Below are positions 27,772 through 45,166 of a stretch of DNA of 64,000 bases, in pieces (the first letter of the stretch is position 1; the number at the start of each line of letters is the position of its first letter). The stretch is from an uncultured Clostridia bacterium (GTDB lineage: Bacteria; Bacillota; Clostridia; TANB77; CAG-508). Under the pieces are notes generated by a model. That model was given only the letters and a program-made list of their open reading frames with translations, was not told where the DNA came from and ran no database searches. The stretch is taken from positions 27,060 through 91,059 of the forward strand of contig CAKOYQ010000004.1 of assembly GCA_934130935.1 (NCBI GenBank). Direction: 5' to 3'. A program made the position numbers and the translations under genes.

Positions 27772-27835
27772 ATTTTTATTCCTTTCTTTCCATCAAAAAA
27801 AGAAGCTTATAAGCCTCTTTAAATTGAATTTATTT

Positions 27836-30553: not shown

Positions 30554-30709
30554 TTAACAATATTTTCTTTTTAACTTAAACAATATCTTATCAAGATAAT
30601 CTACAATATTACCTTTTAATAATTGTTTGTTTCTGTATTCATTTAATGTATTTACTATTATATTGTATTCTTTTTCATTTACTTCTATTTGATATTTCTT
30701 TTTAAACAT
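30554..30709 (-). CDS. Small basic protein (51 aa), not in the ORF track
   Basis: ATG at 30709 behind GGGAG. Translation is MFKKKYQIEVNEKEYNIIVNTLNEYRNKQLLKGNIVDYLDKILFKLKRKYC. The TCACAAATGTGTGA palindrome lies 60 nt upstream. Confidence 0.3.
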   Translation of the reverse strand: MFKKKYQIEVNEKEYNIIVNTLNEYRNKQLLKGNIVDYLDKILFKLKRKYC

Positions 30710-30785
30710 TATAATCAACTCCCATCATAATTTTGTTGTAACTACAATAACATATTGACTATAATTTCACAAATGTGTGATTTGT

Positions 30786-31358
30786 TTATTCTGATATTTC
30801 TGCAAATTTTTGTATATCTTCTTTTGTTTCAATATATTTTTTTAATGTATCGTTCATCATTTCAAATAATTCGTCAAAATTCATTTCTTCCAAATTTATT
30901 TCATCTATCAAATTCAATAGTATATTGGCAACCCTTTCTATTGGAAAATCTACAAATTTAGTGTTCATATTATAAAGAATTTTAGTAAAATTTAAAAGTA
31001 CTGGAATATCATCTTCTAGTATTGCTTGAATATCCTCATTTGTTATCAAATACATAATAAGTGCAATATCAACATTTATAGCTGTATTAATTTCCTCATT
31101 AAGAATTTCTAATACATTATTAATCGATGTCTTTGCAATGATTTTATCTAATTCTATTTGAAGTCTTAAATTTGTTTCTTCTCTCATTTCTGATAAGATT
31201 TCAAATATATCTTCTAATTTTAGCTTATTCAAAAAGCAATTATAATATATTTGTTTTATAACTACTCTTGCAGTTTCTTTTTTTAGATCAACTAAATAAT
31301 CCGTAATCTCATTTAATCTCTTACTAATATTGTTTAAATTAATTTTTTCATTCTCCAT
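30786..31358 (-). CDS. Acidic hypothetical protein (190 aa), last gene of the element-associated block
   Basis: ORF only; Glu/Asp/Ile-rich and probably helical. Confidence 0.5.
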   Translation of the reverse strand: MENEKINLNNISKRLNEITDYLVDLKKETARVVIKQIYYNCFLNKLKLEDIFEILSEMREETNLRLQIELDKIIAKTSINNVLEILNEEINTAINVDIALIMYLITNEDIQAILEDDIPVLLNFTKILYNMNTKFVDFPIERVANILLNLIDEINLEEMNFDELFEMMNDTLKKYIETKEDIQKFAEISE

Positions 31359-31489
31359 AAATTCAATTCCTTTCTAACTATTATATCTATTTTTATAAGT
31401 TGTTCTTATTTCAAATAATCTGTGGCTTACTTGAAATATGCAAAAAAAGAACTAGAGCATATTTCTAGTTTTCTAAATGCCTATATATA

Positions 31490-31543
31490 AAAAAGTTCCG
31501 GGTATCAAAGTTTTGTGCATAAAGAGATAGGAATAAATAGTAG
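31490..31543. repeat. Intergenic repeat A, copy 1 (~54 nt; degenerate palindrome TTTTGTGCATAAAG)
   Basis: AAAAAGTTCCGGGTATCAAAGTTTTGTGCATAAAGAGATAGGAATAAATAGTAG is about 90% identical to the copy at 45006-45062, and its 3' 42 nt match the copy at 43764-43806. Confidence 0.7.
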
Positions 31544-31876
31544 TATTCGCATTTAAGTCCTACCCAGTAGTTTTAAGGCTTTGCAGCAATTTGCACTTAT
31601 ATCATTACTATTTTTATCTTATTATATACTTTGCATCTAGCGTCTTATATTATTTACTTATATAATTTAATGTTCAATTAGTTTTCTTGTTCAAATTTCA
31701 AATTTGTAGCTTAGCTTTTTTTCAATTTTAAATTATATTTTGAAATTTTGTTAAAAATCCTCAAAATGCCTATTTCTCTATATTTACCGTATTTTTGCAA
31801 CAACAAACTATATGTCTTTAAAATAAAAACTCTTTAAAATCGATTCTCGTGCGTTGTTTTTTTGACTATTTTTTGC

Positions 31877-31910
31877 ATATTTTATAGTATGCTGATATTT
31901 CTGGAATTTT
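31877..31910. repeat. Intergenic repeat B, copy 1 (34 nt)
   Basis: ATATTTTATAGTATGCTGATATTTCTGGAATTTT, 33/34 identical to 43907-43940. Confidence 0.7.
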
Positions 31911-32460
31911 TGCATTTTTTATTAGTTAGACCTATATTATCTATATTTTCACTATACTATTAGACATATAAACTTTATTGCTTAATTATTAAAATGTCTT
32001 AAAAACGATTTTCATGCGTCTGTATTTATAATTTATTTTAAGTTACATATAATAGTTCTAATAGATACTTTAAATGGTATATAAATTTAATTTTTAATAA
32101 TTTTGTGTTTGAAAAAATTAAATCTTAAAAAAATGTTTGGTTTTAGATTTTATATATTTTTATATAAAACTTTGCACAAAATCAAAATCGAATAATTTAT
32201 ATAAATTTATAAATCTTTAAATAAAATTTTAATTACAAAAATTCTAAAATTATTTTAAATTCTAAATTTACTTTCTATTATTATTTTTTATTTCATTAAA
32301 TTTGTTTTTATCATAATTTTAAAATTATTAATAATCTTTTTTAAATTATTTTTAAAACTTTATCTAATTAATTTTATTTTATTCATTATAAGTAGTTTTA
32401 ATTTTATGCTCCCCTACTCCCTCTTGACTTTCTATGTATTTTTCTAAAACAAGTTTCAGT

Positions 32461-32781
32461 TTAAATTTTTCCTTGGATTAGATTAAATTCTTTTATTATT
32501 TTTATTATACTATAATAATCATCTGGTTCAACTTTTTTTGAAATAATCCCCATTGAATTACCTGTTTCAATATTATTTTGATTATCGTCTATAAAAATGC
32601 ATTCATTTGGAATTAAGTTATATCTTTCTAATAAGACATTATATATTGCTTTATATGGTTTTATTTTATGTTCTTGATAAGATAGTACATATCCATCTAC
32701 CAAATCAAATAACCCACTCTTATTAACAAATTCAAACAATTTTTTCGTAATAGCTTTTGTATCAACTTGTCTCCATACCAC
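32461..32781 (-). pseudogene. HAD-superfamily hydrolase, C-terminal half only (N-terminal catalytic DxD part absent)
   Basis: IFIDDNQNNIETGNSMGII is the HAD motif III/IV region. The 106-aa size and missing N-terminal motif suggest a gene remnant. Confidence 0.4.
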
Positions 32782-32792
32782 TTATTTTGTTA

Positions 32793-33164
32793 TTATTTAC
32801 CCATTTTCTCAATAAAATTTCTCATTTTGTTTATCATATCATTAATGTCTTCATATTCAATAAAATGACTTGTGATAAATTTCAAAGATGAACTTACTTT
32901 TATTCCTTTTTCATAGATACACAATATAGGTGTTCTAGCATAATCTGCCCAACCTAATTCTATACCTTGTCCAGTAGCTGGTAATGATACTTCTGCAATT
33001 ACTAAATCGTAATTGGAAATAATATCTTTTGTGTTTATTATTTTATCTTTTTCCTCATGTGGCAAAAAAAATGTATTCGATTGAGTTAAGTCAGAATTTT
33101 TGATTGGATTATAAATTTTGCTTATATAATCATATTTACTTGAATGTGAAATGTATATTTTCAT
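32793..33164 (-). CDS. Nucleoside 2-deoxyribosyltransferase-like protein
   Basis: LPATGQGIELGWADYARTPILCIY matches the NDT-family active-site region; 123 aa. Confidence 0.55.
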   Translation of the reverse strand: MKIYISHSSKYDYISKIYNPIKNSDLTQSNTFFLPHEEKDKIINTKDIISNYDLVIAEVSLPATGQGIELGWADYARTPILCIYEKGIKVSSSLKFITSHFIEYEDINDMINKMRNFIEKMGK

Positions 33165-33241
33165 TTTTTCCTCCTAATTTTATACTACTTTAACTCATTA
33201 TATACTGTAATTTGCATCTTGTATTTATCATAATAGCATAA

Positions 33242-33277
33242 AAGCAGATAATTATCAATCAATTATCTGCTTTTTTT
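33242..33277 (+). terminator. Intrinsic-terminator-like hairpin (12-bp stem AAGCAGATAATT/AATTATCTGCTT followed by T7)
   Basis: Perfect stem with a 7-nt loop and TTTTTTT. It faces the plus strand and may insulate the fab operon from antisense read-through. Confidence 0.4.
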
Positions 33278-33416
33278 ATAATTAAATATGTTTTCATATT
33301 TGTATCTATTTTTAATAATACATATTATGCTAACACAATAAAAAAGGATTAGCTTTTCTTGGAGAACAATTACATAGTGTTATAATCACACCTCAATTAC
33401 TTTCATACATATTCTT

Positions 33417-33474
33417 AAAATAGAGCTATTAGGATTTGAACCTAATTATATTCCTAAATATATAGCTCTTTTAT
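33417..33474 (-). terminator. Candidate terminator hairpin downstream of fabI
   Basis: AGAGCTAT...ATAGCTCT outer stem with an inner TTAGG-TTCAAAT-CCTAA stem-loop, followed on the minus strand by ATTTTAAG. Confidence 0.3.
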
Positions 33475-33622
33475 AAAATTTCAAAATTTAAAATCTAAAA
33501 TTTCTAAAATAATTTTTTAAAAATTTATTTCAAAAATTTTTGTTATATAATTTTTAAAACGTTACACAAAATATTTTACTACCTATTAACATTCATCATT
33601 CTCTCCTTACTACACTTTTTTA

Positions 33623-34417
33623 TTAAACTCCCATAATATTATAGCCGCTATCAGCATATATAATTTGTCCCGTTATCGCATCCGACATATTGCTTAATAA
33701 AAATGTAGCTACATTTCCCACTTGCTCTGTAGTTACATTTTTATGTAAAGGTGCTTTTTCTTCTACAATAGTCAATATAGAATTAAAATCTTTTATGCCT
33801 TTTGCCGATAATGTTTTTATTGGACCTGCTGATATCGCATTTACTCTTATTCCGTCCTTTCCTAAATTTTCTGCTAAATATCTAACACTTGCTTCAAGTG
33901 CAGCTTTTGCTACTCCCATAATATTATAACCTTCTAAAACTTTAGTAGAGCCGTGATATGTTAAAGTGACTAAAGTTGCATTTTCATTTAGCATATCTAG
34001 TTCTCTAGCCATCCTTGCAACTAATACGAAAGAATAACTACTAACGTCAACTGCGTGAGAATATCCTTCTTTACTTGTAAGGATAAAATCATTTCTTAGA
34101 TCTTCAGTATTCGCATGTGCAATTGCATGTACAATTCCATCTAATTTGCCATTTTCTACTTTTATTTTTGTAAATACATCTTTAACTAATTCATCTTCTG
34201 ATGCACCATTTAACACATAAGCTTTACTACCCTTAAATTCACTAATTAGATCTTCTATTTTTTCTTTATTATCTTCACCCATATAAGTAAAAATTAATTT
34301 TGCTCCATTTTCATAAGTTGATTTTGCGATTCCATAAGCAATACTCCACTTGTTTCTAATTCCCATTATTAATATTTTTTTATCTTTTAATAACATTTTA
34401 TACCTCCTTAAACTCAC
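33623..34417 (-). CDS. fabI: Enoyl-[acyl-carrier-protein] reductase (NADH), FabI
   Basis: N-terminal dinucleotide-binding GKKILIMG...SIAYGIA and an SDR fold of 264 aa; last gene of the fab/acc operon. Confidence 0.8.
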   Translation of the reverse strand: MSLRRYKMLLKDKKILIMGIRNKWSIAYGIAKSTYENGAKLIFTYMGEDNKEKIEDLISEFKGSKAYVLNGASEDELVKDVFTKIKVENGKLDGIVHAIAHANTEDLRNDFILTSKEGYSHAVDVSSYSFVLVARMARELDMLNENATLVTLTYHGSTKVLEGYNIMGVAKAALEASVRYLAENLGKDGIRVNAISAGPIKTLSAKGIKDFNSILTIVEEKAPLHKNVTTEQVGNVATFLLSNMSDAITGQIIYADSGYNIMGV

Positions 34418-35210
34418 CCATATTTCTAAATTTCATATATCTATTTTCTACAATTTGATTTCCATTTAGATATTTCATTTGTTCTATTTCTTTTTGTATT
34501 TCTTTTTTTAAACTATTTACAACTTTTTTAAAATTTTCTTCATTATATTCTTTTGGTTCTTTTATAATTATATCTATTACTTTAAGTTCAAATAAGTCCT
34601 TTGCTGTTAATTTCATTTTTTCTGCAGCTTCTTTAAACTTAGATGCATCTTTCCATAAAATACTACTATAGCCTTCTGGTGAAAGAATTGAATAAATGGC
34701 ATTTTCTAACATAAATACCTTATTTGCAACTCCAATTGCTAAAGCTCCTCCACTTGAACCTTCTCCAACTACAATTGATATAATTGGTACTTTGAGCTTT
34801 GCCATTTCAAACATAGATTTAGCAATAGCTTCTCCCTGTCCTTTTTCTTCTGCTTCTATTCCTGGATATGCTCCTTTGGTATCAATAAAAGTAATTACTG
34901 GTCTCTTAAATTTTTCAGCTTGTTTCATAAACCTTATTGCTTTTCTATAACTTTCAGGATTTGGCATTCCAAAATTTCTTTCTATATTTTCTTTTGTTGT
35001 CCTTCCTTTTTGTTCTGCTATAATTGTAAAATTTTGTTTTCCTATTTTGGCTAATCCGCATACTATAGCTTTATCATCTTTAGAGTTTCTATCTCCATGT
35101 AATTCTATAAAATCATCAAATATCTCCTCTATATAGTCAAGTGAAGTCTTCCTTTTGGGATTTCTTGCTATTTCTACTTTTTCCCAAGCTGATAATTTCG
35201 TATTTGCCAT
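34398..35210 (-). CDS. accA: Acetyl-CoA carboxylase carboxyltransferase subunit alpha
   Basis: RPVITFIDTKGAYPGIEAEEKGQGEAIAKSM and VVGEGSSGGALAIG motifs. Confidence 0.9.
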   Translation of the reverse strand: MANTKLSAWEKVEIARNPKRKTSLDYIEEIFDDFIELHGDRNSKDDKAIVCGLAKIGKQNFTIIAEQKGRTTKENIERNFGMPNPESYRKAIRFMKQAEKFKRPVITFIDTKGAYPGIEAEEKGQGEAIAKSMFEMAKLKVPIISIVVGEGSSGGALAIGVANKVFMLENAIYSILSPEGYSSILWKDASKFKEAAEKMKLTAKDLFELKVIDIIIKEPKEYNEENFKKVVNSLKKEIQKEIEQMKYLNGNQIVENRYMKFRNMGEFKEV

Positions 35211-36059
35211 TAAATTTCGCCTCCTTTATGAAACATAATTAATTTATAAATAGTATCTTTTAAATCTTTTCTTTCAACTATCTTATCTATAAAACCATGT
35301 TCTAACAAAAATTCAGCTGTTTGAAAACCATCTGGTAACTTTTCACCTATTGTTTGTTTTATTACCCTTTGACCTGCAAATCCTATCATTGCATGTGGTT
35401 CTGCTAAAACAATGTCTCCCAAACTTGCAAATGAAGCTGTAACTCCTCCATATGTTGGATCTGTTAAAACAGATATATATAATAATCCTGCTTCATCTAA
35501 TTTGGTAAGTGCAGCTGTAGTTTTTGCCATTTGCATTAAAGATATAATTCCTTCTTGCATTCTAGCTCCACCTGAAACAGAAAATATAATAAGTGGTAAT
35601 CTTTTTTCTACTGCTTGCTCAATGGCATATGTTATTTTTTCGCCTACAACACTTCCCATACTTCCCATTAAGAAACCACTATCCATAATACATATAACAA
35701 CATCTTCTCCTTTAATTTTACCAGTTCCGGCATGCTACTGCTTCAGCTAGTCCTGTCTTTTCTCTTAAAGTCTTAAGTTTTTTAGGGTAATCTTCTAATT
35801 CTAGTGGATTCGTTGTTTCTATATTTAAATCAAACTTTTTATATGTATTTTTATCTATTATTAATTCTAACCTTCTATCTATATGCATTCTAAAGTAATG
35901 TCCACAATTTGGGCAAATATTTAGATTATTTCTAATGGTTTCTTTATATAGTATTTCTTTACATTTTTCACATTTTACCCATTTTCCTACTGGTATATCT
36001 ATATTAGAATTTTTATTATTTGTTGGTATTTGCCTTTTCTTTATTTTATCTACAATCAT
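35210..36059 (-). pseudogene. accD: Acetyl-CoA carboxylase carboxyltransferase subunit beta (accD), interrupted by a 1-nt frameshift at ~35730-35745 in this sequence
   Basis: N-terminal Zn ribbon CEKCKEILYK...CPNCGHYF in ORF 35718..36059. The conserved ..TGLAEAV then continues as [32 protein letters not shown] in another frame (ORF 35210..35686). Confidence 0.85.
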
Positions 36060-37411
36060 TTAGTGGTCTCCTTTTTTATTATTTCTTTTTCTATAAATGA
36101 GGTATCAAAATTTCCTCTAATAAAGTTGGGATTTTTAATTATTTCAAATAAAAAATCTTGATTTGTTTGTATTCCTTCTACAACCAGTTCTTCTATTACT
36201 CTTTTCATTTTACTAATTGCTTCATTTCTATTTACTCCAAAAGTAATAAGCTTTGCAATCATGGAATCATAATTTGATGGAATTGTATATCCTTCATAAA
36301 TTGCACTATCTATTCGTACTCCATTTCCTCCTGGAAAATGTAAACCTTTTATTAGTCCTGGACATGTCATAAATTTTTTACTTGGATTTTCAGCATTCAA
36401 TCTACATTCCATAGAATGCCCTTTGAATTCTACATCTTTTTGTTTTATTTTTAGTTCCTCTCCTGTTGCAATTTTTATTTGAGTTTTTACTAAATCTATT
36501 CCTGTTCTCATTTCAGTAATTGGATGTTCTACCTGAATTCTTGTATTCATTTCCATAAAATAAAAATTGTTGTCTTTATCTACTAAAAATTCTACTGTTC
36601 CAAGACTTGTATATCCAGCTGTTTTAGCTGCTTTTATAGCTGCATTCCCCATTTTATTTCTTGTTTTTTCATCAATAGCAGTAGATGGTGTTTCTTCTAT
36701 TACTTTTTGATGATTTCTTTGAATAGTGCAATCTCTTTCTCCTAAATGAATTACATTTCCATGTTCATCTTCTACTATTTGAATTTCGACATGTCTTGGA
36801 TTTTCAATAAATTTTTCTATATATATTTCATCATCATTAAATGAATTCTTCGCCTCTTGTTTTACTACTTCATATTCTTTTTTCAATTCTTCTGCAGTAT
36901 TTGCAACTCTGATACCTTTGCCACCGCCTCCTGCTGCAGCCTTTAACATAACAGGATAGCCTATTTTTTCTGCTATTTCTAATGCATCTTTTAATCCTTT
37001 TACACTTCCATCTGAACCAGGTATAACAGGTACCCCTGCTTTTTTCATCATCTCTTTTGCATTTGATTTATTTCCTAATAAATCAATAACTTTTGACTTT
37101 GGTCCAATAAATTTTATATTTGATTCTTCGCATATTTGAGCAAATTTTGAATTTTCAGATAAAAAACCAAAACCTGGATGAATGCTATCAGCTTTTGTTA
37201 TATATGCTGCTTGTATAATATTTTTTATATTTAAGTAGCTTTTATTAGCTTGAGCTGGTCCAATACAAATAGCCTCATCCGCCAAGCGAGTATGCAAAGC
37301 ATCTTTATCTATTTCAGAATAAACTGCAACTGTCTTTATATTCATTTCTTTACATGCTCTTATAATACGAACTGCAATTTCACCACGATTTGCAATTAAT
37401 ATTTTATTCAT
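36056..37411 (-). CDS. accC: Biotin carboxylase
   Basis: MNKILIANRGEIAVRIIRAC, an ATP-grasp domain, 451 aa. Confidence 0.9.
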   Translation of the reverse strand: MNKILIANRGEIAVRIIRACKEMNIKTVAVYSEIDKDALHTRLADEAICIGPAQANKSYLNIKNIIQAAYITKADSIHPGFGFLSENSKFAQICEESNIKFIGPKSKVIDLLGNKSNAKEMMKKAGVPVIPGSDGSVKGLKDALEIAEKIGYPVMLKAAAGGGGKGIRVANTAEELKKEYEVVKQEAKNSFNDDEIYIEKFIENPRHVEIQIVEDEHGNVIHLGERDCTIQRNHQKVIEETPSTAIDEKTRNKMGNAAIKAAKTAGYTSLGTVEFLVDKDNNFYFMEMNTRIQVEHPITEMRTGIDLVKTQIKIATGEELKIKQKDVEFKGHSMECRLNAENPSKKFMTCPGLIKGLHFPGGNGVRIDSAIYEGYTIPSNYDSMIAKLITFGVNRNEAISKMKRVIEELVVEGIQTNQDFLFEIIKNPNFIRGNFDTSFIEKEIIKKETTK

Positions 37412-37450
37412 TCATTTCTACCTCTTTCAACTTTTAATTTTAAATAGAAC

Positions 37451-37873
37451 CTAAACTAAAGCAAATGTCAATTCACCTTTAGCAACAATCTTTTCATCAA
37501 TTGTTGCTATTGCTTCTCCTACTCCAATTGGCCCTTTTCTTTTTATAATTTTCACTTCTAATTTTAATCTATCTCCTGGTACAACTTTTCTTTTAAATTT
37601 CATTTTATCAATTCCTCCGAATAAAGCATTTTTTCCTTTATTCTCATCCATTGAAAGAATTGCAACCGCTCCTGTTTGTGCTAAGCTTTCTGCAATTAAT
37701 ACTCCTGGCATAATCGGATTACCTGGAAAATGACCTTTAAAATACCATTCTTGCTCATTTACATTTTTATATGCTATTGCTGATTCTCCTGGTACATATT
37801 CTTCTACTTCATCAATCATTAAAAATGGATCTCTTTGTGGAATAATATTTTTGATTTCTTCTTTATTTAGCAT
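37451..37873 (-). CDS. fabZ: 3-hydroxyacyl-ACP dehydratase
   Basis: PFLMIDEV...GHFPGNPIMPGVLIAE hot-dog fold motifs. Confidence 0.9.
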   Translation of the reverse strand: MLNKEEIKNIIPQRDPFLMIDEVEEYVPGESAIAYKNVNEQEWYFKGHFPGNPIMPGVLIAESLAQTGAVAILSMDENKGKNALFGGIDKMKFKRKVVPGDRLKLEVKIIKRKGPIGVGEAIATIDEKIVAKGELTFALV

Positions 37874-38310
37874 TAATTTTCACCTTCTATTCTAAATAAT
37901 GGTGTTCCATATTCTACTGCTTCACCATCTTTTACTAAAATTTCTGTAACTTTGCCTGTATATTCTGACTCAATTTCATTCATTAATTTCATAGCTTCGA
38001 TAATGCAAAGTACATCACCTTTTTTTACTTCTTTTCCTATTTCAATATAAGGTTCTGCTACAGGAGAAGGTTTCAAATAGAAAGTTCCAACCATTGGTGA
38101 TTTTATTATATTTCCTTTTTCTTCTTTTTGGACTTCTATAGTAGTGTTTGGTATCATTATTGGAGTATCCTGAACAGCTTGAACTACAGTTTCTTGTATC
38201 TTATCTTTTTTCATACTAATTTTAGTTCCATCTGGAAACTCAATATCAACTTCTGTTAATTTTGAATTTCCCATCTCTTCTATTAATTGTTTTATTTTTT
38301 CATATTCCAT
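37873..38310 (-). CDS. accB: Biotin carboxyl carrier protein
   Basis: Biotinylation motif EAMKLMNEI in a C-terminal lipoyl-like domain. Confidence 0.85.
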   Translation of the reverse strand: MEYEKIKQLIEEMGNSKLTEVDIEFPDGTKISMKKDKIQETVVQAVQDTPIMIPNTTIEVQKEEKGNIIKSPMVGTFYLKPSPVAEPYIEIGKEVKKGDVLCIIEAMKLMNEIESEYTGKVTEILVKDGEAVEYGTPLFRIEGEN

Positions 38311-39552
38311 CTATTTTTCCTCCCATTTTTTTATGATAATACTAGAGTTGTGTCCTCCAAATCCAAGTGAATTTGACATAACAATATTTAATTTAGTTTT
38401 TCTTGGTTCATTTGGAACAATGTCTAAATCACATTCTTCATCTTTTTCTTTATAATTTATTGTTGGTGGCACTATACCATTTTCCATTGCTTTTACACAA
38501 AAAATTGCTTCTACTGCTCCTGCTGCTCCTAAAAGGTGTCCTATGTTTCCTTTTGTAGAACTTACCATTATTTTTTTACTTGCTTCACCCAATGCTGTTT
38601 TTATAGCCATTGTTTCTGTTAAATCATTTAAATGTGTTGATGTTCCATGTGCATTTATATAATCTATATCTTCTGGTTTTATTTTGGCATCTTTTATCGC
38701 TCTTACCATTGCATTTGCTCCACCTTCTCCATCAGGGCATGGAGATGTTATATGGTAAGCATCTGAAGTTGAACCAAATCCAATAACTTCTGCATATATT
38801 TTAGCGTTTCTTTTTTTTGCATGTTCTAATTCTTCTAATACTAATATTCCACTTCCTTCTCCCATAACAAATCCACTTCTCTTTTTGTCAAATGGAATAC
38901 TTGCTCTATTTTTATCTGTAAATGTACATAGTGCCTTCATATTTTCAAAACCTGCTATCCCAACAGGACATATAGAAGCCTCTGTGCCTCCTGCAACAAC
39001 AACATCTTCATATCCATGTTTTATTGTTTTATACCCTTCTCCTATTGAATGTGTTGAAGAACTACAAGCTGTAACAATTGCAATAGATTCACCTTTAAAT
39101 CCAAATTCTATTGAAATATTTCCAGCTGGCATATTAGTTATTGCCATTGGTATAAACATAGGCGATACCCTATTATTTCCTTTTTCGTAATTAACTTCAC
39201 ATTGATTTTGAATTGTTGTCAATCCACCAATTCCTGTACTAACAAAAATACCTACTCTTTTAAAATCTGTATTTTTTGAAGTTATTCCACTATTTTTTAC
39301 TGCTTCTCTTGCTGCTATTAGTGCAAATTGAGAAGATCTGTCTAATCTTTTTGCATGTTTTGGTTCAAAATAATCTAAAGGATTATAATTTTTCACTTCC
39401 GCACATAAACTCGTTTTAAAATTACTACTATCAAATAGTGAAATTTTATCAATTCCACATTCTTTATTTTCTATTCCTTTCCATGTTTCATTTACATTAT
39501 TTCCTATTGGAGTAATTGTTCCTAATCCCGTTATAACTACTCTTCTTTCCAT
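38311..39552 (-). CDS. fabF: 3-oxoacyl-ACP synthase II
   Basis: KAS fold with active-site Cys (VTACSSSTHSIGE) and His-His residues (NAHGTST, GHLLGAAG). Confidence 0.9.
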   Translation of the reverse strand: MERRVVITGLGTITPIGNNVNETWKGIENKECGIDKISLFDSSNFKTSLCAEVKNYNPLDYFEPKHAKRLDRSSQFALIAAREAVKNSGITSKNTDFKRVGIFVSTGIGGLTTIQNQCEVNYEKGNNRVSPMFIPMAITNMPAGNISIEFGFKGESIAIVTACSSSTHSIGEGYKTIKHGYEDVVVAGGTEASICPVGIAGFENMKALCTFTDKNRASIPFDKKRSGFVMGEGSGILVLEELEHAKKRNAKIYAEVIGFGSTSDAYHITSPCPDGEGGANAMVRAIKDAKIKPEDIDYINAHGTSTHLNDLTETMAIKTALGEASKKIMVSSTKGNIGHLLGAAGAVEAIFCVKAMENGIVPPTINYKEKDEECDLDIVPNEPRKTKLNIVMSNSLGFGGHNSSIIIKKWEEK

Positions 39553-39565
39553 TTGTCATCTCTCC

Positions 39566-40315
39566 TTACATTAACATTCCACCATCAATATGAATTACTT
39601 GACCTGTAATATATGAACTATCACTAGATGCTAAAAACTTAACAACATTTGCAACATCTTGTGGTGTTCCTATTCTTTTTAGAGGAATTTTTTTTGCAAT
39701 TTCTTCTTTAATATCTTCTTTTAATACAGCTGTCATTTGTGTTTCAATAAATCCCGGTGCTACCGCATTAACAGTAATATTTCTTGAAGCAACTTCTTTT
39801 GCTAAACTTTTTGTAAATCCTATAATTCCTGCTTTTGATGCTGCATAATTTGTTTGACCTGCGTTTCCTGATATTCCTACAACTGATGAGATATTTATTA
39901 TTCGACCATTTCTTGCTTTCATCATATAACTAATTACATTTTTAGTCACATTAAATGTGCCTACTAAATTAGTATCTATAACCTGTTTAAAATCTTCTTC
40001 TCTCATTCGCATTAGCAATGTGTCCCTTGTAATTCCTGCATTATTTACTAATACATCTATGTTTCCAAATTCTTCTATAATTTGTTTTACAAATTTCTCA
40101 CAATCCTCAAATTTAGTTACATCCCCTTGAACTGCAAAACACTTTACATTATTTGCTTCTATTTCTCTTTTAGTATTTTTTAAGTCATCATTTTCAGTTC
40201 TATAATTGATTGCAATATCATATCCCTCTTTTGCAAATGTTAAGGCTATTTGCTTTCCAATTCCTCTTGTTCCACCTGTAATTAATGCTAGTTTATTCAT
40301 TTTTTTATCCTCCAT
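39566..40315 (-). CDS. fabG: 3-oxoacyl-ACP reductase
   Basis: SDR motifs TGGTRGIGK and NNAG, and catalytic YAASKAG. Confidence 0.9.
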   Translation of the reverse strand: MEDKKMNKLALITGGTRGIGKQIALTFAKEGYDIAINYRTENDDLKNTKREIEANNVKCFAVQGDVTKFEDCEKFVKQIIEEFGNIDVLVNNAGITRDTLLMRMREEDFKQVIDTNLVGTFNVTKNVISYMMKARNGRIINISSVVGISGNAGQTNYAASKAGIIGFTKSLAKEVASRNITVNAVAPGFIETQMTAVLKEDIKEEIAKKIPLKRIGTPQDVANVVKFLASSDSSYITGQVIHIDGGMLM

Positions 40316-41241
40316 ATTCCTTTAACACTGCTTGCAAACTACAAACATTATTAATATTTAATATTCTTATTTCTTTATTTGTCGGTACTCTTTTTACAAA
40401 TCCTGATAATGTTTTTCCGAGGGCCTATTTCTATAAATGTATCTATTCCATTATTTAGCATATTTTCAATTGTTTTTGAAAATTTAACTGGATTTATAAT
40501 GTGACGGGCCAAAATATCTTTTACATCGTCTGTCTCTTTATAAATTTCGCCATCTATATTTTTAATCACTTTTGTTTCAAACTTATGAACAGTAATATTT
40601 TCAAGGTCTTTTCTAAAAACATTTGAACTTTCTATCAATTTTTCAGTATGAAATGGCCCTGCTGTTTTTAAAACTCTTACCTTTTTTGCACCCATTTCTT
40701 TTGCAATTTTTTCTGCTTCAGTAATTGCTTCTTTTTCTCCAGAAATTACAACTTGACCTACTGAATTATAATTTGCTGGAACTACAAAACCAGATTTTAC
40801 TTTTTTGCAAACATCTTCTACTTCATTATCATTTAAGCCAATAATTGCCGCCATCTGCCATTCTCCACTAGGAAGCAAATTTTGCATATATTCTCCTCGC
40901 TTTTGGACAATTTTTATTCCTTCTTCAAACATAAGTGCTTTACTATTGATTAGTGCTGTATATTCACCTAAACTCAATCCTGCTGACATATTAGCTGTTA
41001 TATTATTATCTTTTAAAATTTCTAATATTGCTAAACTCTCTGTAAGTATCGCAAGTTGTGTATATTTTGTTTCATTTAATATATCTTCTGGTCCTTCAAA
41101 TGATATTTTTGCAATGTCTATTCCTGTTATATTTTTAACTTGATTATATATTTTTCTTGCAGCTTCATATTCTTCATATATATCTTTTCCCATTCCAATA
41201 CTTTGAGAGCCTTGACCAGGAAATAAAAATCCAATATTCAT
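40305..41241 (-). pseudogene. fabD: Malonyl CoA-ACP transacylase (fabD) with an apparent 1-nt frameshift near its 3' end (~40420)
   Basis: Motif GQGSQ. The track ORF ends ..FIEIGPRKNIIRICKKSTDK at 40375, but the adjacent frame continues with the expected FabD C-terminus GKTLSGFVKRVPTNKEIRILNINNVCSLQAVLKEYGG, stopping at 40307-40305 and overlapping the fabG start. Confidence 0.8.
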
Positions 41242-41245
41242 TTTT

Positions 41246-41824
41246 TTAAATAACTCCTCTCTTTTCTATTTCTTTTTCAAATTGATTACAAAATTCTGCT
41301 ATAAATCTCTTAGTATCTACATCTACTCCAAATTCTTTTTTTATGGATGTTGCTATATTTTTTATATCCTTTGTAAATTTTTCCTTTTTAGTGTTAATTC
41401 CAATTCCAACTACTAAGTATTTAATTTTTTCATTAATAAGTTTAGTTTGAGTTAAAATTCCACCTATTTTTTTATTATTAAATGTAATATCATTTGGCTC
41501 TTTAATATTTAAATTAATTCCATATTTATTCTTAAAAATATCAACAATTATATTTGCAATTTTTATTGTAAGTCCATCTAATCTTTGAATATTACAATTT
41601 GTTTTTATAAAAAATGAAAATGCTATATTATTTGCCTCATCTGTATGCCAGACTCTTCCATGTGTTCCTATTCCTTTATCCTGAATATCTGCAAATACTA
41701 AAGTACCATCTGGAGTATTTTTGTTTTCTATTAATCTCCAAATTTCATTTTGTGTTGAATCTATTTTGCTATAAAAAATACTATTTCTTCCTAAAAATTT
41801 AGTCTTTAAGTTTTCTAATTGCAT
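41246..41824 (-). CDS. birA: Biotin--[acetyl-CoA-carboxylase] ligase, group I (no HTH)
   Basis: BPL catalytic motifs KGIGTHGRVWHT and KEPNDITFNNKKIGGIL; 192 aa. Confidence 0.7.
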   Translation of the reverse strand: MQLENLKTKFLGRNSIFYSKIDSTQNEIWRLIENKNTPDGTLVFADIQDKGIGTHGRVWHTDEANNIAFSFFIKTNCNIQRLDGLTIKIANIIVDIFKNKYGINLNIKEPNDITFNNKKIGGILTQTKLINEKIKYLVVGIGINTKKEKFTKDIKNIATSIKKEFGVDVDTKRFIAEFCNQFEKEIEKRGVI

Positions 41825-43517
41825 CTAAATTCTCCTGTCTTTTTATCTTATTTGTTGTTGTTCTAATAAGTGGCTCTTCTGTTAGCATTATTCCCCTTAT
41901 TGCTTTATAAGATGGCATTGTTTGGTTGACTTCTTTAATTTTCTTTGACAAGACTTTATATATGTCTTCATCTTTTTCAACTTTGTAAACATCTTTTATA
42001 ACATCTCTATCAAATACTATCTTTACATTTATTTTTATATTGTTCTCATCATTTGATTGTATTCTTCCAAAAATAAACGACTCTTTTATTCCTTCTATTT
42101 TATTTACTAAATTTTCCATTTCTTCTGGAAATATGTTTTTGCCATTTTTTAATACTATTACACTTTTCTTTCTACCACATATAAATATATATCCTTCTTC
42201 ATCTATTTTAGCTAAATCTCCTGTATAGAACCATCCATCTTGTAATGATTTTACATTTACTTTTTCATTTTCATAATATCCTAGCATTACACTTGGTCCT
42301 TTAACTACTAGTTCTCCAATTCTATCATCATTTACATCTACAAGTTTTGCTTCTACACTTGGAACTGTTTTTCCGATTGATCCTAACTTATAATTTTTAT
42401 TTGTTCCAACTGCCACGACAGGCGAAGTTTCAGTCAATCCATATCCTTGTACTAAATTTAATCCTAATAATCTATATCTTTCTTCTATTGTCTTATCTAA
42501 AGCTGCGGCTCCACTTATCAATAATTTTATTTTTCCACCTAGCATATCATGTATTTCTTTAAATACCTCTTTCTTTTTTTGCATAGAGAAATTTTTATAT
42601 TTTTCTTCATTTTCTAATATTTCCTCAAGTTTCCCTTGTTTTTCTAATTTCTTTCTAATCATCATAAATATTCTTTCATATATACCTGGTACACATGCCA
42701 TGACTGTTACATGATATTCATTTAGGTTTTCTACTATATGTCTTAAACCATCACAAAATACAGTCTCTGCTCCTTTATATAATGAAAATAAAAATCCTAC
42801 TGTACATTCAAATACATGGTGTATTGGCAAAACAGACAGAAAAACATCTTCTTGCGTTACATCTAACACACTTCCAATATCCATTAAATTTGTGCAAATA
42901 TTTTCGTGAGAAAGTGCTACAACTTTAGATTTAGATGTTGTTCCTGATGTAAATAACATAATACTCATCTCTTTTGGATTGATCTGTGCATTTAAAAATT
43001 CTTTATTTCCTTCTTCTATCAGTTTCTTACCTTTTCGTATTAATTCTTTTTGTGAATATATACCTTCAAAATTCTCATCATTGTCCATAGAAATTAAATG
43101 TTTTAATTTGTTTTTCTCACTATATCTAATATTTTGAATTATATCTGAATATTTTTTTGTATAAAATATCGCTTCTATATCAGATCTTTCTATCAATAGT
43201 TCTAGCTCATTTGCTGGTAGTGATTTATCTAACGGAACAACAATTCCTGTTCCACATACAATTGATAAATATGCTATTTCCCATTCATATCTATTTTCTC
43301 CAATAACTGCAATTCTTTTTCCCTTTAGACCTAAATTTATTAATGCTGTTCCTAAATTATTTATCATATCTCGTACTTCGCTATGTGAGTAAGTTTTATA
43401 TTTTCCATTTTCTACTTTAATTTTATATGCTGGCCTTTTTGCATATAATTTTCCTGTTTTGTTTAACATGTCTTTTAAATCTTTAATTTCTAAATAATCA
43501 TATATTTTTTTATTCAT
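41799..43517 (-). CDS. AMP-dependent acyl-CoA synthetase (long-chain fatty-acid--CoA ligase-like)
   Basis: AMP-binding motif LFTSGTTSKSKVV and GYGLTE; 572 aa; first gene of the block. Confidence 0.75.
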   Translation of the reverse strand: MNKKIYDYLEIKDLKDMLNKTGKLYAKRPAYKIKVENGKYKTYSHSEVRDMINNLGTALINLGLKGKRIAVIGENRYEWEIAYLSIVCGTGIVVPLDKSLPANELELLIERSDIEAIFYTKKYSDIIQNIRYSEKNKLKHLISMDNDENFEGIYSQKELIRKGKKLIEEGNKEFLNAQINPKEMSIMLFTSGTTSKSKVVALSHENICTNLMDIGSVLDVTQEDVFLSVLPIHHVFECTVGFLFSLYKGAETVFCDGLRHIVENLNEYHVTVMACVPGIYERIFMMIRKKLEKQGKLEEILENEEKYKNFSMQKKKEVFKEIHDMLGGKIKLLISGAAALDKTIEERYRLLGLNLVQGYGLTETSPVVAVGTNKNYKLGSIGKTVPSVEAKLVDVNDDRIGELVVKGPSVMLGYYENEKVNVKSLQDGWFYTGDLAKIDEEGYIFICGRKKSVIVLKNGKNIFPEEMENLVNKIEGIKESFIFGRIQSNDENNIKINVKIVFDRDVIKDVYKVEKDEDIYKVLSKKIKEVNQTMPSYKAIRGIMLTEEPLIRTTTNKIKRQENLDAIRKLKD

Positions 43518-43763
43518 TTTTTCTCCAATTTTTTAAATTTTTTATTATTTTTATATCACAATAATAAGTTAATGTCTTTATACTGGTAAGTCAGTACAAT
43601 TTATTTTCAGTGCCTTAAGAAATATATTTTTCTATTCTATCCAAAAAAAAAGCTAATTTTTAAAATTAACTTTTTGTTAGATATTATTTCAATAACTACA
43701 TTTTTTATATTGAATAATATATGTATTCTATTAGACATAAAAGAGGTTACATTTAGTTTGTAT

Positions 43764-43806
43764 TATCAAAGTTTTGCGCAAAAAGAGATAGGAGTAAAAT
43801 AGTAGA
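43764..43806. repeat. Intergenic repeat A, copy 2 (partial; contains the TTTTGCGCAAAA palindrome)
   Basis: TATCAAAGTTTTGCGCAAAAAGAGATAGGAGTAAAATAGTAG. Confidence 0.7.
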
Positions 43807-43906
43807 CCCCCCTTCCAGAGTCCTACTCACAAGCTCTTGTAACTACTTTTAAATAATTTTTCTATTTAAAATTTAATTTCATTACTTAATAATTTTTATT
43901 TCACAA

Positions 43907-43940
43907 TATATTTTATAGCATGCTGATATTTCTGGAATTT
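43907..43940. repeat. Intergenic repeat B, copy 2
   Basis: ATATTTTATAGCATGCTGATATTTCTGGAATTTT; same order and orientation relative to repeat A as in copy 1. Confidence 0.7.
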
Positions 43941-43954
43941 TCTTTGTATGCTTT

Positions 43955-44909
43955 TTATTCATTATTTAAAAAATTCATCACTAAATCTATAATTACATCC
44001 TTTTCTTTTGGATTTGATTCTGCAATTAATAAAGTAAGAGCTGTTAATGTATTGTTGTCAATTACTTGATTTCCATTTTTATATAATATTCCATAAAAAT
44101 TTAGAAAATATATAAATAAAGTTGCTGCAATTCTTTTGTTTCCATCGGCAAATACATGATTTTTTACTATTAAATATAAGAAATTTGCTCCTTTTTCTTC
44201 TATACTCTTGTAAATATCTTGTCCGTGCAAAGCTTTGATAAATGTTACCAATAATCGATTCTAATCCTTTATCTCTTTCAACTGCAAAAAGCGAACTTTC
44301 TTCATTAAATCTTAATTTATTAATTATATCTATACATTCTTGGTATCCAATTTTTCTATCATCTGTATTTCCTTCAATTTTCTTTAAAGTTCTATGATCA
44401 TAATCATCTAATAAGTCTAATGCTTTTGAATATCCTCCAATTACCTTCAATATTTCTTTTGCATCATTTCCTTCTAGTCTTTCATCAATGCGGTTTGCAA
44501 TATCTATAAGTTTTATAGTTTTTTCTAAGTACTCTAGTCTTTTTTGATTTACAGCATAACCTTTTAACATGTAGTCTTTTAGTATGTTTGTTGCCCATTT
44601 TCTGAACAAAATACCTTGTTTGCTATTTACTCTATATCCAATAGAAATAATCATATCTAAATTGTAATATTGTACATTATATCTTTTGCCATCTTCAGCA
44701 GTATGCTCAAAAAATGAGCATACTGAGCTTTCTACTAATTCTTCATCTTTATAAATATTTTGAATATGACGAGTGATTGTTCTTCTATCTTTCCCAAATA
44801 ATTCTGCCATTTGTTTTTGTGTAAGCCACACAGTTTCATCTTTTAAGTTTACTTCTAATTTTACTCCTTGGTTTTCAAATAAAATAATTTCATTCTTTTT
44901 TTCGTCCAT
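43955..44909 (-). pseudogene. RhuM-family virulence protein fused to a Fic/Doc domain, frameshifted (ORFs 44079..44909 and 43955..44251 overlap in different frames)
   Basis: RhuM N-terminal domain LKDETVWLTQKQMAELFGKDRRTITRHI...YNLDMIISIGYRVNSKQGILFRKWAT. Fic motif HVFADGNKRIAA in the second ORF. Confidence 0.7.
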
Positions 44910-45005
44910 AAGAACACATCCTTTATTATATAAAATTTAATTCTTATTTTATAATAAGAACAAACATTTGTCTATAGTTTTAAACAAAATTATTAGCTAT
45001 TTTAG

Positions 45006-45062
45006 AAAAAAGTTCCGGGTATCAAAGTTTTGCGCAAAAAGAGATAGGAGTAAAATAATAGA
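45006..45062. repeat. Intergenic repeat A, copy 3
   Basis: AAAAAGTTCCGGGTATCAAAGTTTTGCGCAAAAAGAGATAGGAGTAAAATAATAG, about 100 nt upstream of the RhuM/Fic start on the minus strand. Confidence 0.7.
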
Positions 45063-45166
45063 ACACCTTTTTATATATTTTTAACATCATCTAAAGACAT
45101 TTTTCCTATCTTTAATGGTGTCCAAATTTCATGTGATACTGCTATTTCATTTTTGATTATCTTTTA

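What the first reader, a model, noticed from the sequence alone, without database searches (positions are those of the whole stretch)
31490..45062. Three-copy ~55-nt intergenic element (repeat A) with internal TTTTGCGCAAAA palindrome, each copy 100-250 nt upstream of a minus-strand gene
The three copies lie at 31490-31543, 43764-43806 (partial) and 45006-45062. Copies 1 and 3 are about 90% identical over 54 nt, and copy 2 shares the 3' 42 nt.

Read on the minus strand, each copy contains TTGATA-N15-(TAAAAT or TATATA) promoter-like hexamers. These are immediately preceded by the 12-nt perfect palindrome TTTTGCGCAAAA, which is degenerate in copy 1.

The copies sit upstream of three genes:
- the last gene of the conjugative-element block (30786..31358),
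- the acyl-CoA synthetase at the head of the fab/acc operon,
- the RhuM/Fic gene.

They therefore bracket both the fab region and the defense island. They may be a shared regulator-controlled promoter cassette, a small mobile or REP-like element, or a recombination scar.
Basis: seen in the sequence. Interest (0 to 1): 0.55.

Follow-up and report, generated by a model that had tools for sequence, protein, structure and literature searches.

The report
Half-sites of a chromosomal dif-like site
The three repeats are not promoters but copies of one half of the recombination site at the chromosome's replication terminus, left as junction marks where a conjugative element and other mobile DNA inserted, in a group of uncultured gut bacteria where this site had not been described.

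Summary
The three copies are real (a 38-mer is exact in two copies; 0 expected by chance).

They are not a dispersed repeat. Each of 39 genomes of uncultured low-GC gut Bacillota carries the core at a single locus.

The full site is ATTGCACAAAA-TCAAAG-TTTTGTGCAA: 10-bp inverted arms around a 6-bp spacer. It sits exactly where GC skew and gene strand flip (22/22 left flanks, 21/21 right flanks), which marks the replication terminus. Xer-family recombinase genes often lie beside it.

The window's copies keep the spacer, the right arm and a flanking hairpin, but carry foreign left arms.

- **Copy 1** is the right junction of a widespread conjugative element. In eight other contexts the element side is identical up to TCAAA and the host side varies.
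- **Sister strains** show the empty palindromic site, or 5-6 kb filamentous-phage-like elements without an integrase. These are flanked by arm-plus-spacer duplications.
- **Copies 2 and 3** bound a 1,256-bp RhuM module and a strain-variable island.

Best reading: a non-canonical dif-like Xer site plus hybrid sites left by Xer-exploiting elements.

The promoter idea is not supported. A REP-like dispersed element is ruled out. "Recombination scar" is close. Xer dependence is inferred, not shown.

The parts
31490..31504 (+). Copy 1, left arm (class c: AAAAAGTTCCGGGTA). This is the right-hand terminal sequence of the conjugative element and replaces the native left arm ATTGCACAAAA.
   Evidence: It is identical in 8 other contexts of the same element (L044-L051), while the sequence to its right varies. 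The native arm is seen at the same position in sister strains L052, L055 and L056.
31505..31510 (+). Copy 1, 6-bp central spacer TCAAAG (inferred crossover region).
   Evidence: Element/host identity breaks at or just after this hexamer. The spacer is duplicated at both ends of the inserted elements in L057 and L061.
31511..31521 (+). Copy 1, right arm TTTTGTGCATA of the chromosomal dif-like site (consensus TTTTGTGCAAA; one mismatch).
   Evidence: It is the inverted repeat of the left arm in the full site ATTGCACAAAA-TCAAAG-TTTTGTGCAA(A), found in 29 related loci.
31522..31566 (-). Copy 1 extension: AAGAGATAGGAA, then a variable inner hairpin, then GTCCTACCC. On the minus strand this reads as a hairpin followed by a T-run, so it is terminator-like.
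   Evidence: A complementary partner lies 22-25 nt downstream more often than in shuffles (6.8 versus 6.26 of 11 pairs). Minus-strand folds are more stable than plus-strand folds in 42 of 53 copies, and the excess over shuffles is -3.3 versus -1.8 kcal/mol, p=0.001.
31567..32300 (+). Noncoding 'tail' that follows the site in most related genomes. It contains two B repeats (31833-31854 and 31998-32019) and a lone left-arm-like 16-mer at 32171-32186.
   Evidence: No ORF of at least 50 aa lies in 31359-32460. Conserved blocks are shared with many loci. 90 of 92 B copies lie 121-734 nt downstream of a core in the same orientation. There is no Rfam hit.
43746..43765 (+). Copy 2, left arm (class b: GTTACATTTAGTTTGTATTA).
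   Evidence: The same arm adjoins the core in L001, L004, L010, L012, L030, L034 and L052. Homology with L001 starts here.
43766..43850 (+). Copy 2: spacer TCAAAG (43766-43771), right arm TTTTGCGCAAA (43772-43782), and an extension with a minus-strand terminator-like hairpin (43804-43823). This is also the left end of the 1,256-bp RhuM module.
   Evidence: A terminator-like hit lies on the minus strand at 43823-43804. Type-2 strains that are 99.98% identical lose homology at 43789/43790.
44079..44909 (-). RhuM-family gene, the cargo of the module bounded by copies 2 and 3.
   Evidence: Pfam Virulence_RhuM, 1.3e-23. Homologues lie next to core copies in L002, L004, L019, L021, L030, L031 and L044-L051.
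45007..45021 (+). Copy 3, left arm (class c, the same 15-mer as in copy 1).
   Evidence: AAGTTCCGGGTATCAAA is exact at 31493-31509 and 45010-45026.
45022..45066 (+). Copy 3: spacer TCAAAG (45022-45027), right arm (45028-45038), and a truncated extension that ends at about 45066.
1..31504 (-). Conjugative element: relaxase, VirB4-like ATPase, coupling-protein fragments, PrgI, sortase, SpaA adhesin, ParB, ParA and a 190-aa protein. It runs off the left end of the window, and its right end is copy 1.
   Evidence: Pfam results. The same element occurs in many metagenome contigs. No integrase was found in the roughly 35 kb seen.
60186..61181 (+). Xer-family tyrosine recombinase, the candidate enzyme for the site. 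Its orthologues lie directly beside the full site in L037 and L039.
   Evidence: Pfam Phage_integrase plus SAM-like domain. NCBIfam XerC, XerD and XerA models all score below their cut-offs. It is 82% identical to L037_4508 and 50% to L039_5591. The best PDB matches are XerD 1a0p and XerA 5hxy.

Best explanation
The conserved core of 'repeat A' is the spacer plus right arm of the chromosome's dif-like site, together with the flanking minus-strand hairpin. A dif site is the Xer-type dimer-resolution site at the replication terminus.

In this clade the intact site is ATTGCACAAAA-TCAAAG-TTTTGTGCAA(A): 10-bp inverted arms around an asymmetric 6-bp spacer.

Mobile DNA that carries a mimic of the site recombines with it in the spacer. 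This leaves hybrid sites that keep the spacer and one native arm.

In the window:
- **Copy 1** is the native right half, now joined to the end of a conjugative element instead of the native left arm.
- **Copies 2 and 3** are older hybrid sites of the same kind. They bound a 1,256-bp RhuM module and the start of a strain-variable defence island.

**Shown:** the site architecture, one locus per genome, position at the skew and strand switch, the empty and occupied alleles, and the junction positions.

**Inferred:** that a Xer-family recombinase (such as the one at 60186-61181) catalyses the exchange, that the site resolves chromosome dimers, and that the flanking hairpin terminates minus-strand transcripts before the site.
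For: 1. **One locus per genome.** The core was found in 39 assemblies, one locus each, with 1-4 same-orientation copies per locus.
2. **Full palindromic site.** It occurs in 29 loci, with spacer TCAAAG in 27 site occurrences on the core's strand. It is always the leftmost copy of an array.
3. **Terminus position.** At these sites GC skew is positive on the left in 22/22 (mean +0.21) and negative on the right in 21/21 (mean -0.25). Coding strand is 94% plus on the left and 95% minus on the right. Non-palindromic copies show no switch.
4. **Conjugative-element junction.** In 8 different contexts the element side is identical up to ...GTTCCGGGTATCAAA, and the following core differs between hosts.
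5. **Sister strains sharing the window's tail, HAD and 123-aa genes**:
   - L055 and L056 have the empty site ATTGCACAAAA-TGATAC-TTTTGTGCAAA next to an acyltransferase gene and rho, which are convergent with the window's genes.
   - L052 has the empty site with spacer TCAAAG and other left neighbours (an ABC transporter and an ECF sigma factor).
   - L057 has a 5.1-kb element with a rolling-circle Rep (5e-32) and a Zot-like ATPase (5e-11), and no recombinase family among the precomputed Pfam hits. It is flanked by host arm-TCAAAG-GATTTGGCAGA and element arm-TCAAAG-native right arm.
   - L061 has a 5.9-kb element flanked in the same way, with spacer TGATAC at both ends, matching that strain type's spacer.
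6. **Recombinase genes.** Xer-family genes lie within about 1.5 kb of the site in L022, L029, L037 and L039.
7. **Copy 2 is a strain breakpoint.** Four contigs that are 99.98% identical diverge at 43789/43790.
Against: - No recombination assay exists, and Xer dependence is inference only.
- The site does not resemble canonical Bacillus or E. coli dif. No canonical site was seen near it, but whole genomes could not be searched.
- The left end of the conjugative element was not found. The only divergence point seen, 2.15 kb left of the window, has no dif-like sequence. An integrase further left cannot be excluded.
- The type-2 strain breakpoint lies 13 nt right of the arm, not in the spacer.
- The near-invariant AAAAAGAGATAGGAG and the B-repeat tail next to the site are not explained by a plain dif model.
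- 'One locus per genome' rests on fragmented MAGs and on an exact-pattern search.
Confidence: 0.7

Rival explanations
1. The palindromic site is the attB of a dedicated family of integrases carried by the mobile elements. It is not the host's dimer-resolution site, and the copies are ordinary attL/attR remnants.
For: - Hybrid junctions and arm-plus-spacer duplications are what any tyrosine-integrase att site would give.
- The left end of the conjugative element, where an integrase could sit, was not seen.
- A Phage_integrase gene lies in the variable region of L056.
Against: - The site sits exactly at the skew and strand switch in all 22 testable genomes and is conserved across 39 species in an intergenic position.
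- The 5-6 kb Rep/Zot elements have no recombinase family among the precomputed Pfam hits.
- No integrase was found in about 35 kb of the conjugative element.
Confidence: 0.12
2. It is an integron-like cassette platform. The palindromic site acts like attI, the half-site copies act like attC, and single modules (RhuM, GNAT, Fic and others) are captured one after another by an adjacent integrase.
For: - Same-orientation arrays of 2-4 copies, with 1-6 genes between them, all on one strand.
- A tyrosine recombinase is sometimes divergent from the first site (L037).
- The RhuM module recurs with different arms.
Against: - The core is GTTTTGY, not GTTRRRY, and there is no R''/L''/L'/R' attC hairpin.
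- The recombinase scores 122 bits on the integron-integrase model against a cut-off of 265.
- Inserts include a conjugative element of more than 30 kb and phage-like genomes.
- The first site sits at the terminus, and no recombinase gene lies beside it in most genomes.
Confidence: 0.08
3. The repeat is a regulatory cassette for the downstream minus-strand genes: a promoter plus an operator palindrome bound by a shared regulator.
For: - All three copies lie 97-247 nt upstream of minus-strand genes.
- TTGATA-N15-TAAAAT/TATATA is present in copies 1 and 3.
Against: - Copy 2 lacks the second hexamer, and the hexamer spacing is 15 nt.
- The hexamers lie in the non-conserved arm.
- Promoter-like sites are no more frequent than in shuffles.
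- The TTTTGCGCAAAA palindrome is imperfect in most genomes.
- At the full site the minus-strand side faces the 3' end of a convergent gene, so there is nothing to promote.
Confidence: 0.04
4. The repeat is the end of a structured noncoding RNA gene (the roughly 1-kb tail), and the copies are gene fragments duplicated by integration, as happens at tRNA and tmRNA genes.
For: - A conserved noncoding tail with blocks shared across species.
- A hairpin with variable sequence but kept pairing next to the core.
Against: - No Rfam hit, even at E-value 10.
- The B block shows no folding signal.
- The tail is missing at the L036 site.
- Insertion junctions fall in the spacer of a palindrome whose other arm lies outside the tail.
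Confidence: 0.05

Closest known systems
Single-recombinase dif/Xer systems: XerL/dif of Legionellales (found through LME-1 integration; PMC9765430), XerH/difH, XerS/difSL and archaeal XerA/dif (review PMC5357621)
   Same: - A short site with two inverted arms around a 6-bp or longer central region.
- One site per chromosome, at the terminus.
- The recombinase gene is often next to the site.
- As in Legionella, the site was revealed by mobile elements that mimic it.
   Different: - The sequence is unrelated to difH, difSL or canonical dif.
- The arms are a perfect 10-bp inverted repeat.
- The recombinase gene is adjacent in only about 4 of 22 genomes.
- A conserved hairpin and a B-repeat tail adjoin one side.
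- No functional data exist, and whether one or two Xer proteins act is unknown.
IMEX elements (integrative mobile elements exploiting Xer): CTX-phi, VGJ-phi and TLC-phi of Vibrio, and the gonococcal genetic island flanked by difA/difB (PMC5357621, PMC4246890)
   Same: - Filamentous-phage-like genomes without an integrase (rolling-circle Rep plus Zot-like ATPase) are inserted exactly at the site, with one good arm plus spacer duplicated.
- A type IV secretion island with ParA and ParB sits at the same site, as with the gonococcal island.
- Tandem accumulation leaves degenerate hybrid sites.
   Different: - The host is an uncultured gut Bacillota clade rather than Proteobacteria.
- Two insertion polarities are seen: elements supplying the left arm and elements supplying the right arm.
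- Some modules are very small (1.3 kb, one gene).
- Xer dependence is untested.
pdif (XerC/D-like) modules of Acinetobacter plasmids (PMC5790767, PMC7399989)
   Same: Small gene modules bounded by Xer-type sites that recur in different contexts.
   Different: In Acinetobacter the sites are complete 28-bp sites in alternating orientation on plasmids. Here they are same-orientation half-sites next to the chromosomal terminus.
Integron attI/attC cassette arrays
   Same: Same-orientation arrays of gene modules separated by a recombination-site repeat, next to a tyrosine recombinase in some genomes.
   Different: - No attC architecture and no GTTRRRY core.
- The recombinase is not an IntI.
- Inserts include whole phage-like genomes and a conjugative element.

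Membership tests
dif site (Xer chromosome-dimer-resolution site) | Two inverted recombinase-binding arms of about 10-11 bp around a 6-8 (up to 11) bp central region | tested here: met
   ATTGCACAAAA-TCAAAG-TTTTGTGCAA(A) occurs in 29 loci. The inner 10 bp of the arms are perfect inverted repeats.
dif site (Xer chromosome-dimer-resolution site) | Single site per chromosome | tested here: met
   39 assemblies each have one locus, and each locus has one full palindromic copy. Caveat: these are fragmented MAGs searched with an exact pattern.
dif site (Xer chromosome-dimer-resolution site) | Located at the replication terminus (GC-skew shift point) | tested here: met
   The skew sign change holds in 22/22 left flanks and 21/21 right flanks. 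Coding strand is 94% plus on the left and 95% minus on the right. The flanks are only 8 kb or less; whole-genome skew was not available.
dif site (Xer chromosome-dimer-resolution site) | Sequence match to the canonical dif consensus (Bacillus or E. coli type) | tested here: not met
   No match with 7 or fewer mismatches at or near the sites. The site is non-canonical, as are difH, difSL and Legionella dif.
dif site (Xer chromosome-dimer-resolution site) | A Xer-family recombinase encoded by the host | tested here: met
   Window 60186-61181 has Phage_integrase plus a SAM-like domain. Its best NCBIfam hits are XerC, XerD and XerA, all below cut-off, and its best PDB hits are XerD and XerA. Orthologues are adjacent to the site in L037 and L039.
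dif site (Xer chromosome-dimer-resolution site) | Recombination at the site by Xer, and a segregation defect when the site is lost | not testable with these tools
   This needs biochemistry or genetics.
IMEX (integrative mobile element exploiting Xer) | Integrated exactly at dif with the crossover in the central region, leaving arm-plus-spacer duplications | tested here: met
   The L057 and L061 junctions and the empty alleles L052, L055 and L056. The conjugative-element junction in 8 contexts.
IMEX (integrative mobile element exploiting Xer) | No integrase of its own | tested here: inconclusive
   Met for the 5.1-kb and 5.9-kb phage-like elements, which have no recombinase family among the precomputed Pfam hits. 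For the conjugative element, none was found in about 35 kb, but the left end is unseen.
IMEX (integrative mobile element exploiting Xer) | Integration depends on the host Xer recombinase | not testable with these tools
   Inference only.
Integron (attI/attC cassette array) | attC hairpin with R''/L''/L'/R' boxes and a GTTRRRY core, plus an IntI integrase | tested here: not met
   The core is GTTTTGY. The recombinase scores 122 bits on TIGR02249 against a cut-off of 265.
REP/MITE-type dispersed repeat | Many copies dispersed around the genome | tested here: not met
   One locus per genome in 39 genomes. There are no other copies in the 64-kb window.
Sigma-70 promoter cassette | -35 and -10 hexamers 16-18 nt apart, conserved in all copies | tested here: not met
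   The spacing is 15 nt in copies 1 and 3, and copy 2 has no -10 hexamer. The scans find no excess over shuffles.
Known structured RNA family (Rfam) | Match to a covariance model | tested here: not met
   0 hits at gathering score in the window. At E-value 10 or below in 31300-32500 there was only a chance miRNA hit.

The most novel reading that the evidence does not exclude
This clade of uncultured low-GC gut Bacillota uses a previously undescribed dif/Xer system, probably with a single recombinase, whose site is perfectly palindromic. The site doubles as an open capture platform at the terminus. Small modules travel as units bounded by half-sites, each carrying the right arm, a terminator hairpin and often the B-repeat tail. 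Alongside them insert integrase-less inovirus-like phages and a very widespread conjugative element. Defence genes, RhuM/Fic genes and perhaps even a fatty-acid-synthesis operon are shuffled between strains through the dimer-resolution machinery.
Probability: 0.3. Interest if true: 0.75.

Novelty: new variant of a known kind. Interest (0 to 1): 0.62.

Why it matters
**What it offers**
- It would define the chromosome terminus and the dimer-resolution site for a group of abundant but uncultured human-gut bacteria.
- It would extend Xer-exploiting mobile elements, so far characterised mainly in Proteobacteria, to gut Bacillota.
- It would explain how one very widespread conjugative element (found in more than 2,000 blocks of the metagenome index), filamentous-phage-like elements and defence or RhuM modules enter these genomes without integrases of their own.

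**Practical use**
- The 26-28-bp site is a ready marker for locating the terminus in MAGs and for finding integrated elements.
- It is also a candidate landing pad for genetic tools.

**Prior reports**
No paper in the searched library contains the site sequence. A search for Xer-exploiting elements in Firmicutes returned no relevant paper.

Tried and rejected
- **Known RNA families.** Rfam at gathering score and at E-value 10 or below gave nothing. tRNA and tmRNA scan gave nothing, so this is not a tRNA-type att site.
- **Guide-RNA or bridge-RNA-like scaffold** (variable 5' segment plus conserved scaffold). Considered because the left flanks fall into classes. Dropped once those flanks proved to be the ends of inserted elements.
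- **RNAalifold consensus of the hairpin region.** It gave no structure on either strand because the subfamilies are too heterogeneous. I replaced it with per-sequence partner and strand tests.
- **B block as a structured RNA or terminator.** No folding signal.
- **BLAST of the tail against plasmid and phage collections.** No match.
- **Second junction of the conjugative element.** No core-like or arm-like sequence within 10 kb beyond the VirB4-like gene. The L040/L041 divergence point has no dif-like sequence.
- **The lone left-arm 16-mer at 32171-32186 as an attR.** Rejected, because it is constant in all sister strains whether or not they carry an insert.
- **Canonical Bacillus or E. coli dif near the sites.** Absent.
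- **The fab operon as a module bounded by repeat copies.** Its left boundary at 33474 is not at a repeat copy, so this is left open.


Full report
**1. Observation**

The three copies exist as described.
- The repeat finder groups 31486-31537, 43747-43798 and 45003-45054 into one family. Copies 1 and 3 are 92% identical.
- A 38-mer is exact in copies 2 and 3, with none expected by chance.
- The window is 22-31% G+C, and nearly all genes from 1 to 58 kb are on the minus strand.
- The copies lie 132, 247 and 97 nt upstream of minus-strand genes: a 190-aa protein, an AMP-binding acyl-CoA synthetase, and a RhuM-family protein.
- There is no tRNA and no Rfam family in the window.

**2. The repeat is a conserved single-locus sequence, not a dispersed one**

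An exact-pattern scan of one genome per species found the 24-nt core (GTTTTGYGCAWAAAGAGATAGGAR) in 39 assemblies. All are uncultured low-GC gut Bacillota, named 'uncultured Clostridia bacterium', 'Clostridium sp.' or 'Candidatus Faecimonas'. Each has one locus.

Within a locus there are 1-4 copies, always in the same orientation.

Sequence to the right of ...ATCAAAG is conserved. The 15-25 nt to its left fall into a few unrelated classes that recur between species:
- Class a: ATTGCACAAAA.
- Class b: GTTACATTTAGTTTGTATTA, as in window copy 2.
- Class c: AAAAAGTTCCGGGTA, as in window copies 1 and 3.
- Further classes d to g.

**3. The full site**

With the class-a arm the sequence reads ATTGCACAAAA-TCAAAG-TTTTGTGCAA(A). 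That is 10-bp perfect inverted arms around an asymmetric 6-bp spacer, the geometry of a tyrosine-recombinase core site.
- It occurs in 29 loci. The spacer is TCAAAG in 27 site occurrences on the core's strand, with rarer variants TGATAC, TAAAAG and CCAAAG.
- It is always the first copy of an array.

**4. Position**

At the full site the left flank has positive GC skew in 22 of 22 loci (mean +0.21). The right flank has negative skew in 21 of 21 (mean -0.25). Coding strand is 94% plus on the left and 95% minus on the right.

At copies with other arms, both flanks look like the right side.

Left neighbours are core genes such as yabP-yabQ-divIC-rho.

A convergent skew and strand switch marks the replication terminus, which is where dif sites lie (PMC3025954, PMC5357621). 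No canonical Bacillus or E. coli type dif lies near these sites.

**5. Recombinase**

A cluster of 310-332-aa proteins recurs near the site. It lies within about 1.5 kb in L022, L029, L037 and L039, and nearby in L008, L009 and L034.
- The proteins have Phage_integrase plus SAM-like domains.
- Their best NCBIfam models are XerC, XerD and XerA, all below cut-off.
- Their best solved relatives are XerD (1a0p) and XerA (5hxy).

The window's member (60186-61181) is 82% identical to the L037 gene and 50% identical to the L039 gene. Those two genes sit directly beside the site.

**6. Junction evidence**

*(a) The conjugative element.* It fills window 1-31504 and encodes a relaxase, a VirB4-like ATPase, split coupling-protein ORFs, PrgI, a sortase, a SpaA adhesin, ParB and ParA. 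Its 190-aa protein is listed in 2,119 blocks of the metagenome index. In eight different contexts the element side is identical up to ...cctatatataaaaaagttccgggtaTCAAA. The following core differs from host to host. Copy 1 is therefore the element's right junction, and the exchange point is at the spacer.

*(b) Sister strains.* These contigs encode the identical 123-aa protein and have the same tail as the window. They differ on the other side of the site:
- **L055 and L056** have the empty site ATTGCACAAAA-TGATAC-TTTTGTGCAAA next to an acyltransferase gene and rho.
- **L052** has the empty site with spacer TCAAAG and other left neighbours (an ABC transporter and an ECF sigma factor).
- **L057** has a 5.1-kb insert with a rolling-circle Rep (phrog_3419, 5e-32) and a Zot-like ATPase (phrog_197, 5e-11), and no recombinase family among the precomputed Pfam hits. 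Its junctions are host flank-ATTGCGCAAAA-TCAAAG-GATTTGGCAGA and element-ATTGCACAAAA-TCAAAG-native right arm.
- **L061** has a 5.9-kb insert of small ORFs with only weak Zot and morphogenesis matches. Its junctions have the same form, with spacer TGATAC at both ends. This matches the spacer of the empty-site contigs of its strain type (L055, L056).

These are the footprints of elements that mimic the site and recombine in its spacer, as the Vibrio filamentous phages do at dif (PMC5357621, PMC4246890). A type IV secretion island with ParA and ParB at the same site recalls the gonococcal genetic island.

*(c) Copies 2 and 3.* They are 1,256 bp apart and bound a RhuM gene. The same module, with a class-c arm, recurs in L019 and next to core copies in other loci. 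Four contigs that are 99.98% identical to window 34799-43789 lose homology at 43789/43790, inside copy 2. They continue into alr and other core genes instead of RhuM and the defence island.

**7. The conserved flank**

Directly right of the arm comes AAAAAGAGATAGGAG, then a variable inner hairpin, then a partner such as GTCCTACCC or CTCCTATCTC.
- The partner is more complementary than in shuffles: 6.8 versus 6.26 of 11 pairs, with a shuffle maximum of 6.53.
- The 54-nt segment folds better on the minus strand in 42 of 53 copies.
- After a composition control, the excess stability is -3.3 kcal/mol on the minus strand and -1.8 on the plus strand, p=0.001.

On the minus strand the hairpins are followed by T-runs, and the simple scan calls one terminator-like site in copy 2. 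I read this as a terminator that stops minus-strand transcripts before the site. This step is inferred.

**8. What remains unexplained**

- A 0.7-1.1-kb noncoding tail follows most sites. It carries 1-3 tandem B repeats with the invariant sequence CTTAAAATCGATTCTCGTGCGT. Of 92 B copies, 90 are in the same orientation as the core and lie 121-734 nt downstream of it. They show no folding signal, and the tail is absent at the L036 site.
- The near-invariance of the 15-mer next to the arm.
- The left end of the conjugative element.
- The position of the type-2 breakpoint, 13 nt right of the arm.

**9. Verdict**

The repeat is one half of a non-canonical dif-like site. The copies are hybrid sites left by integrations. 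Compared with known systems, this is a new variant of the dif/Xer-plus-IMEX theme in a clade where it had not been described. The site sequence appears in no searched paper, and a literature search for such elements in Firmicutes returned no relevant paper.

Membership in 'dif' is supported for architecture, uniqueness, terminus position and the presence of a Xer-family enzyme. It is not met for canonical sequence, and it is untestable here for function.

Noticed in passing
window 31567-32300 (B repeats at 31833-31854 and 31998-32019): A noncoding 'tail' follows the site, with tandem B repeats about 165 nt apart and an invariant 22-mer CTTAAAATCGATTCTCGTGCGT. In related loci, 90 of 92 B copies share the core's orientation and lie 121-734 nt downstream of a core. 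There is no RNA-folding signal and the function is unknown.
   Followed up: partly
window 33475-43745: The 10.3-kb fab/acc operon, headed by the acyl-CoA synthetase, is present or absent between the 123-aa gene and the class-b arm in otherwise near-identical contexts. It is absent in L001, L052 and L056. The fatty-acid-synthesis cluster therefore behaves as accessory DNA in this species group.
   Followed up: partly
window 1-31504; L040-L051: The conjugative element is extremely widespread: its 190-aa protein is listed in 2,119 blocks of the metagenome index. Its coupling protein (T4SS-DNA_transf) is split into three ORFs (6084-6590, 6553-7269 and 7346-7948), which may be decay or frameshifts. 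No integrase was found in about 35 kb.
   Followed up: partly
L057 9671-14793; L061 10039-15983: Sister strains carry 5.1-kb and 5.9-kb elements inserted exactly at the site. The L057 element encodes a rolling-circle Rep and a Zot-like ATPase. The L061 element has only weak Zot and morphogenesis matches. Both carry many small ORFs, so they look like filamentous phages.
   Followed up: yes
window 32171-32186: A lone copy of the left arm plus most of the spacer (TTTGCACAAAATCAAA) is followed by unrelated sequence. It is constant in all sister strains, so it is not a current junction. It may be an old relic.
   Followed up: yes
window 32461-32781: The HAD-hydrolase ORF is only 106 aa here and in L053, L054 and L057-L060. 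It is 209 aa in L052, L055, L056 and L061, so the window's copy appears truncated.
   Followed up: no
window 43790 onward; L063, L064, L067, L070: Strains that are 99.98% identical up to 43789 continue into an HTH gene, alr, methyltransferase genes, an EF-G-like gene and a radical-SAM gene. The window instead has RhuM and the defence island (a 442-aa protein, DUF2779, an AAA ATPase and WYL). None of the type-2 genes are in the window, so the variable segment is more than 20 kb.
   Followed up: partly
window 58000-62400: GC skew flattens and gene strands mix here. The region holds a TetR regulator, a zeta-toxin-like protein, the Xer-family recombinase, a YcxB-like protein and a flavoprotein. 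Positions 60116-62406 are syntenic with the region directly beside the full site in L037, but in the opposite orientation relative to the repeats.
   Followed up: partly
window 23700-26550: Several direct-repeat families (D1, D2, D4) lie inside the 1,431-aa SpaA-type adhesin gene. They correspond to its repeated prealbumin-like domains (10 Pfam SpaA stretches).
   Followed up: no
L029, L034, L036, L037, L039: A small protein of about 110 aa with no known family (cluster c6) repeatedly accompanies the Xer-like genes next to the site. In L034 and L039 it lies between two Xer-like paralogues.
   Followed up: no
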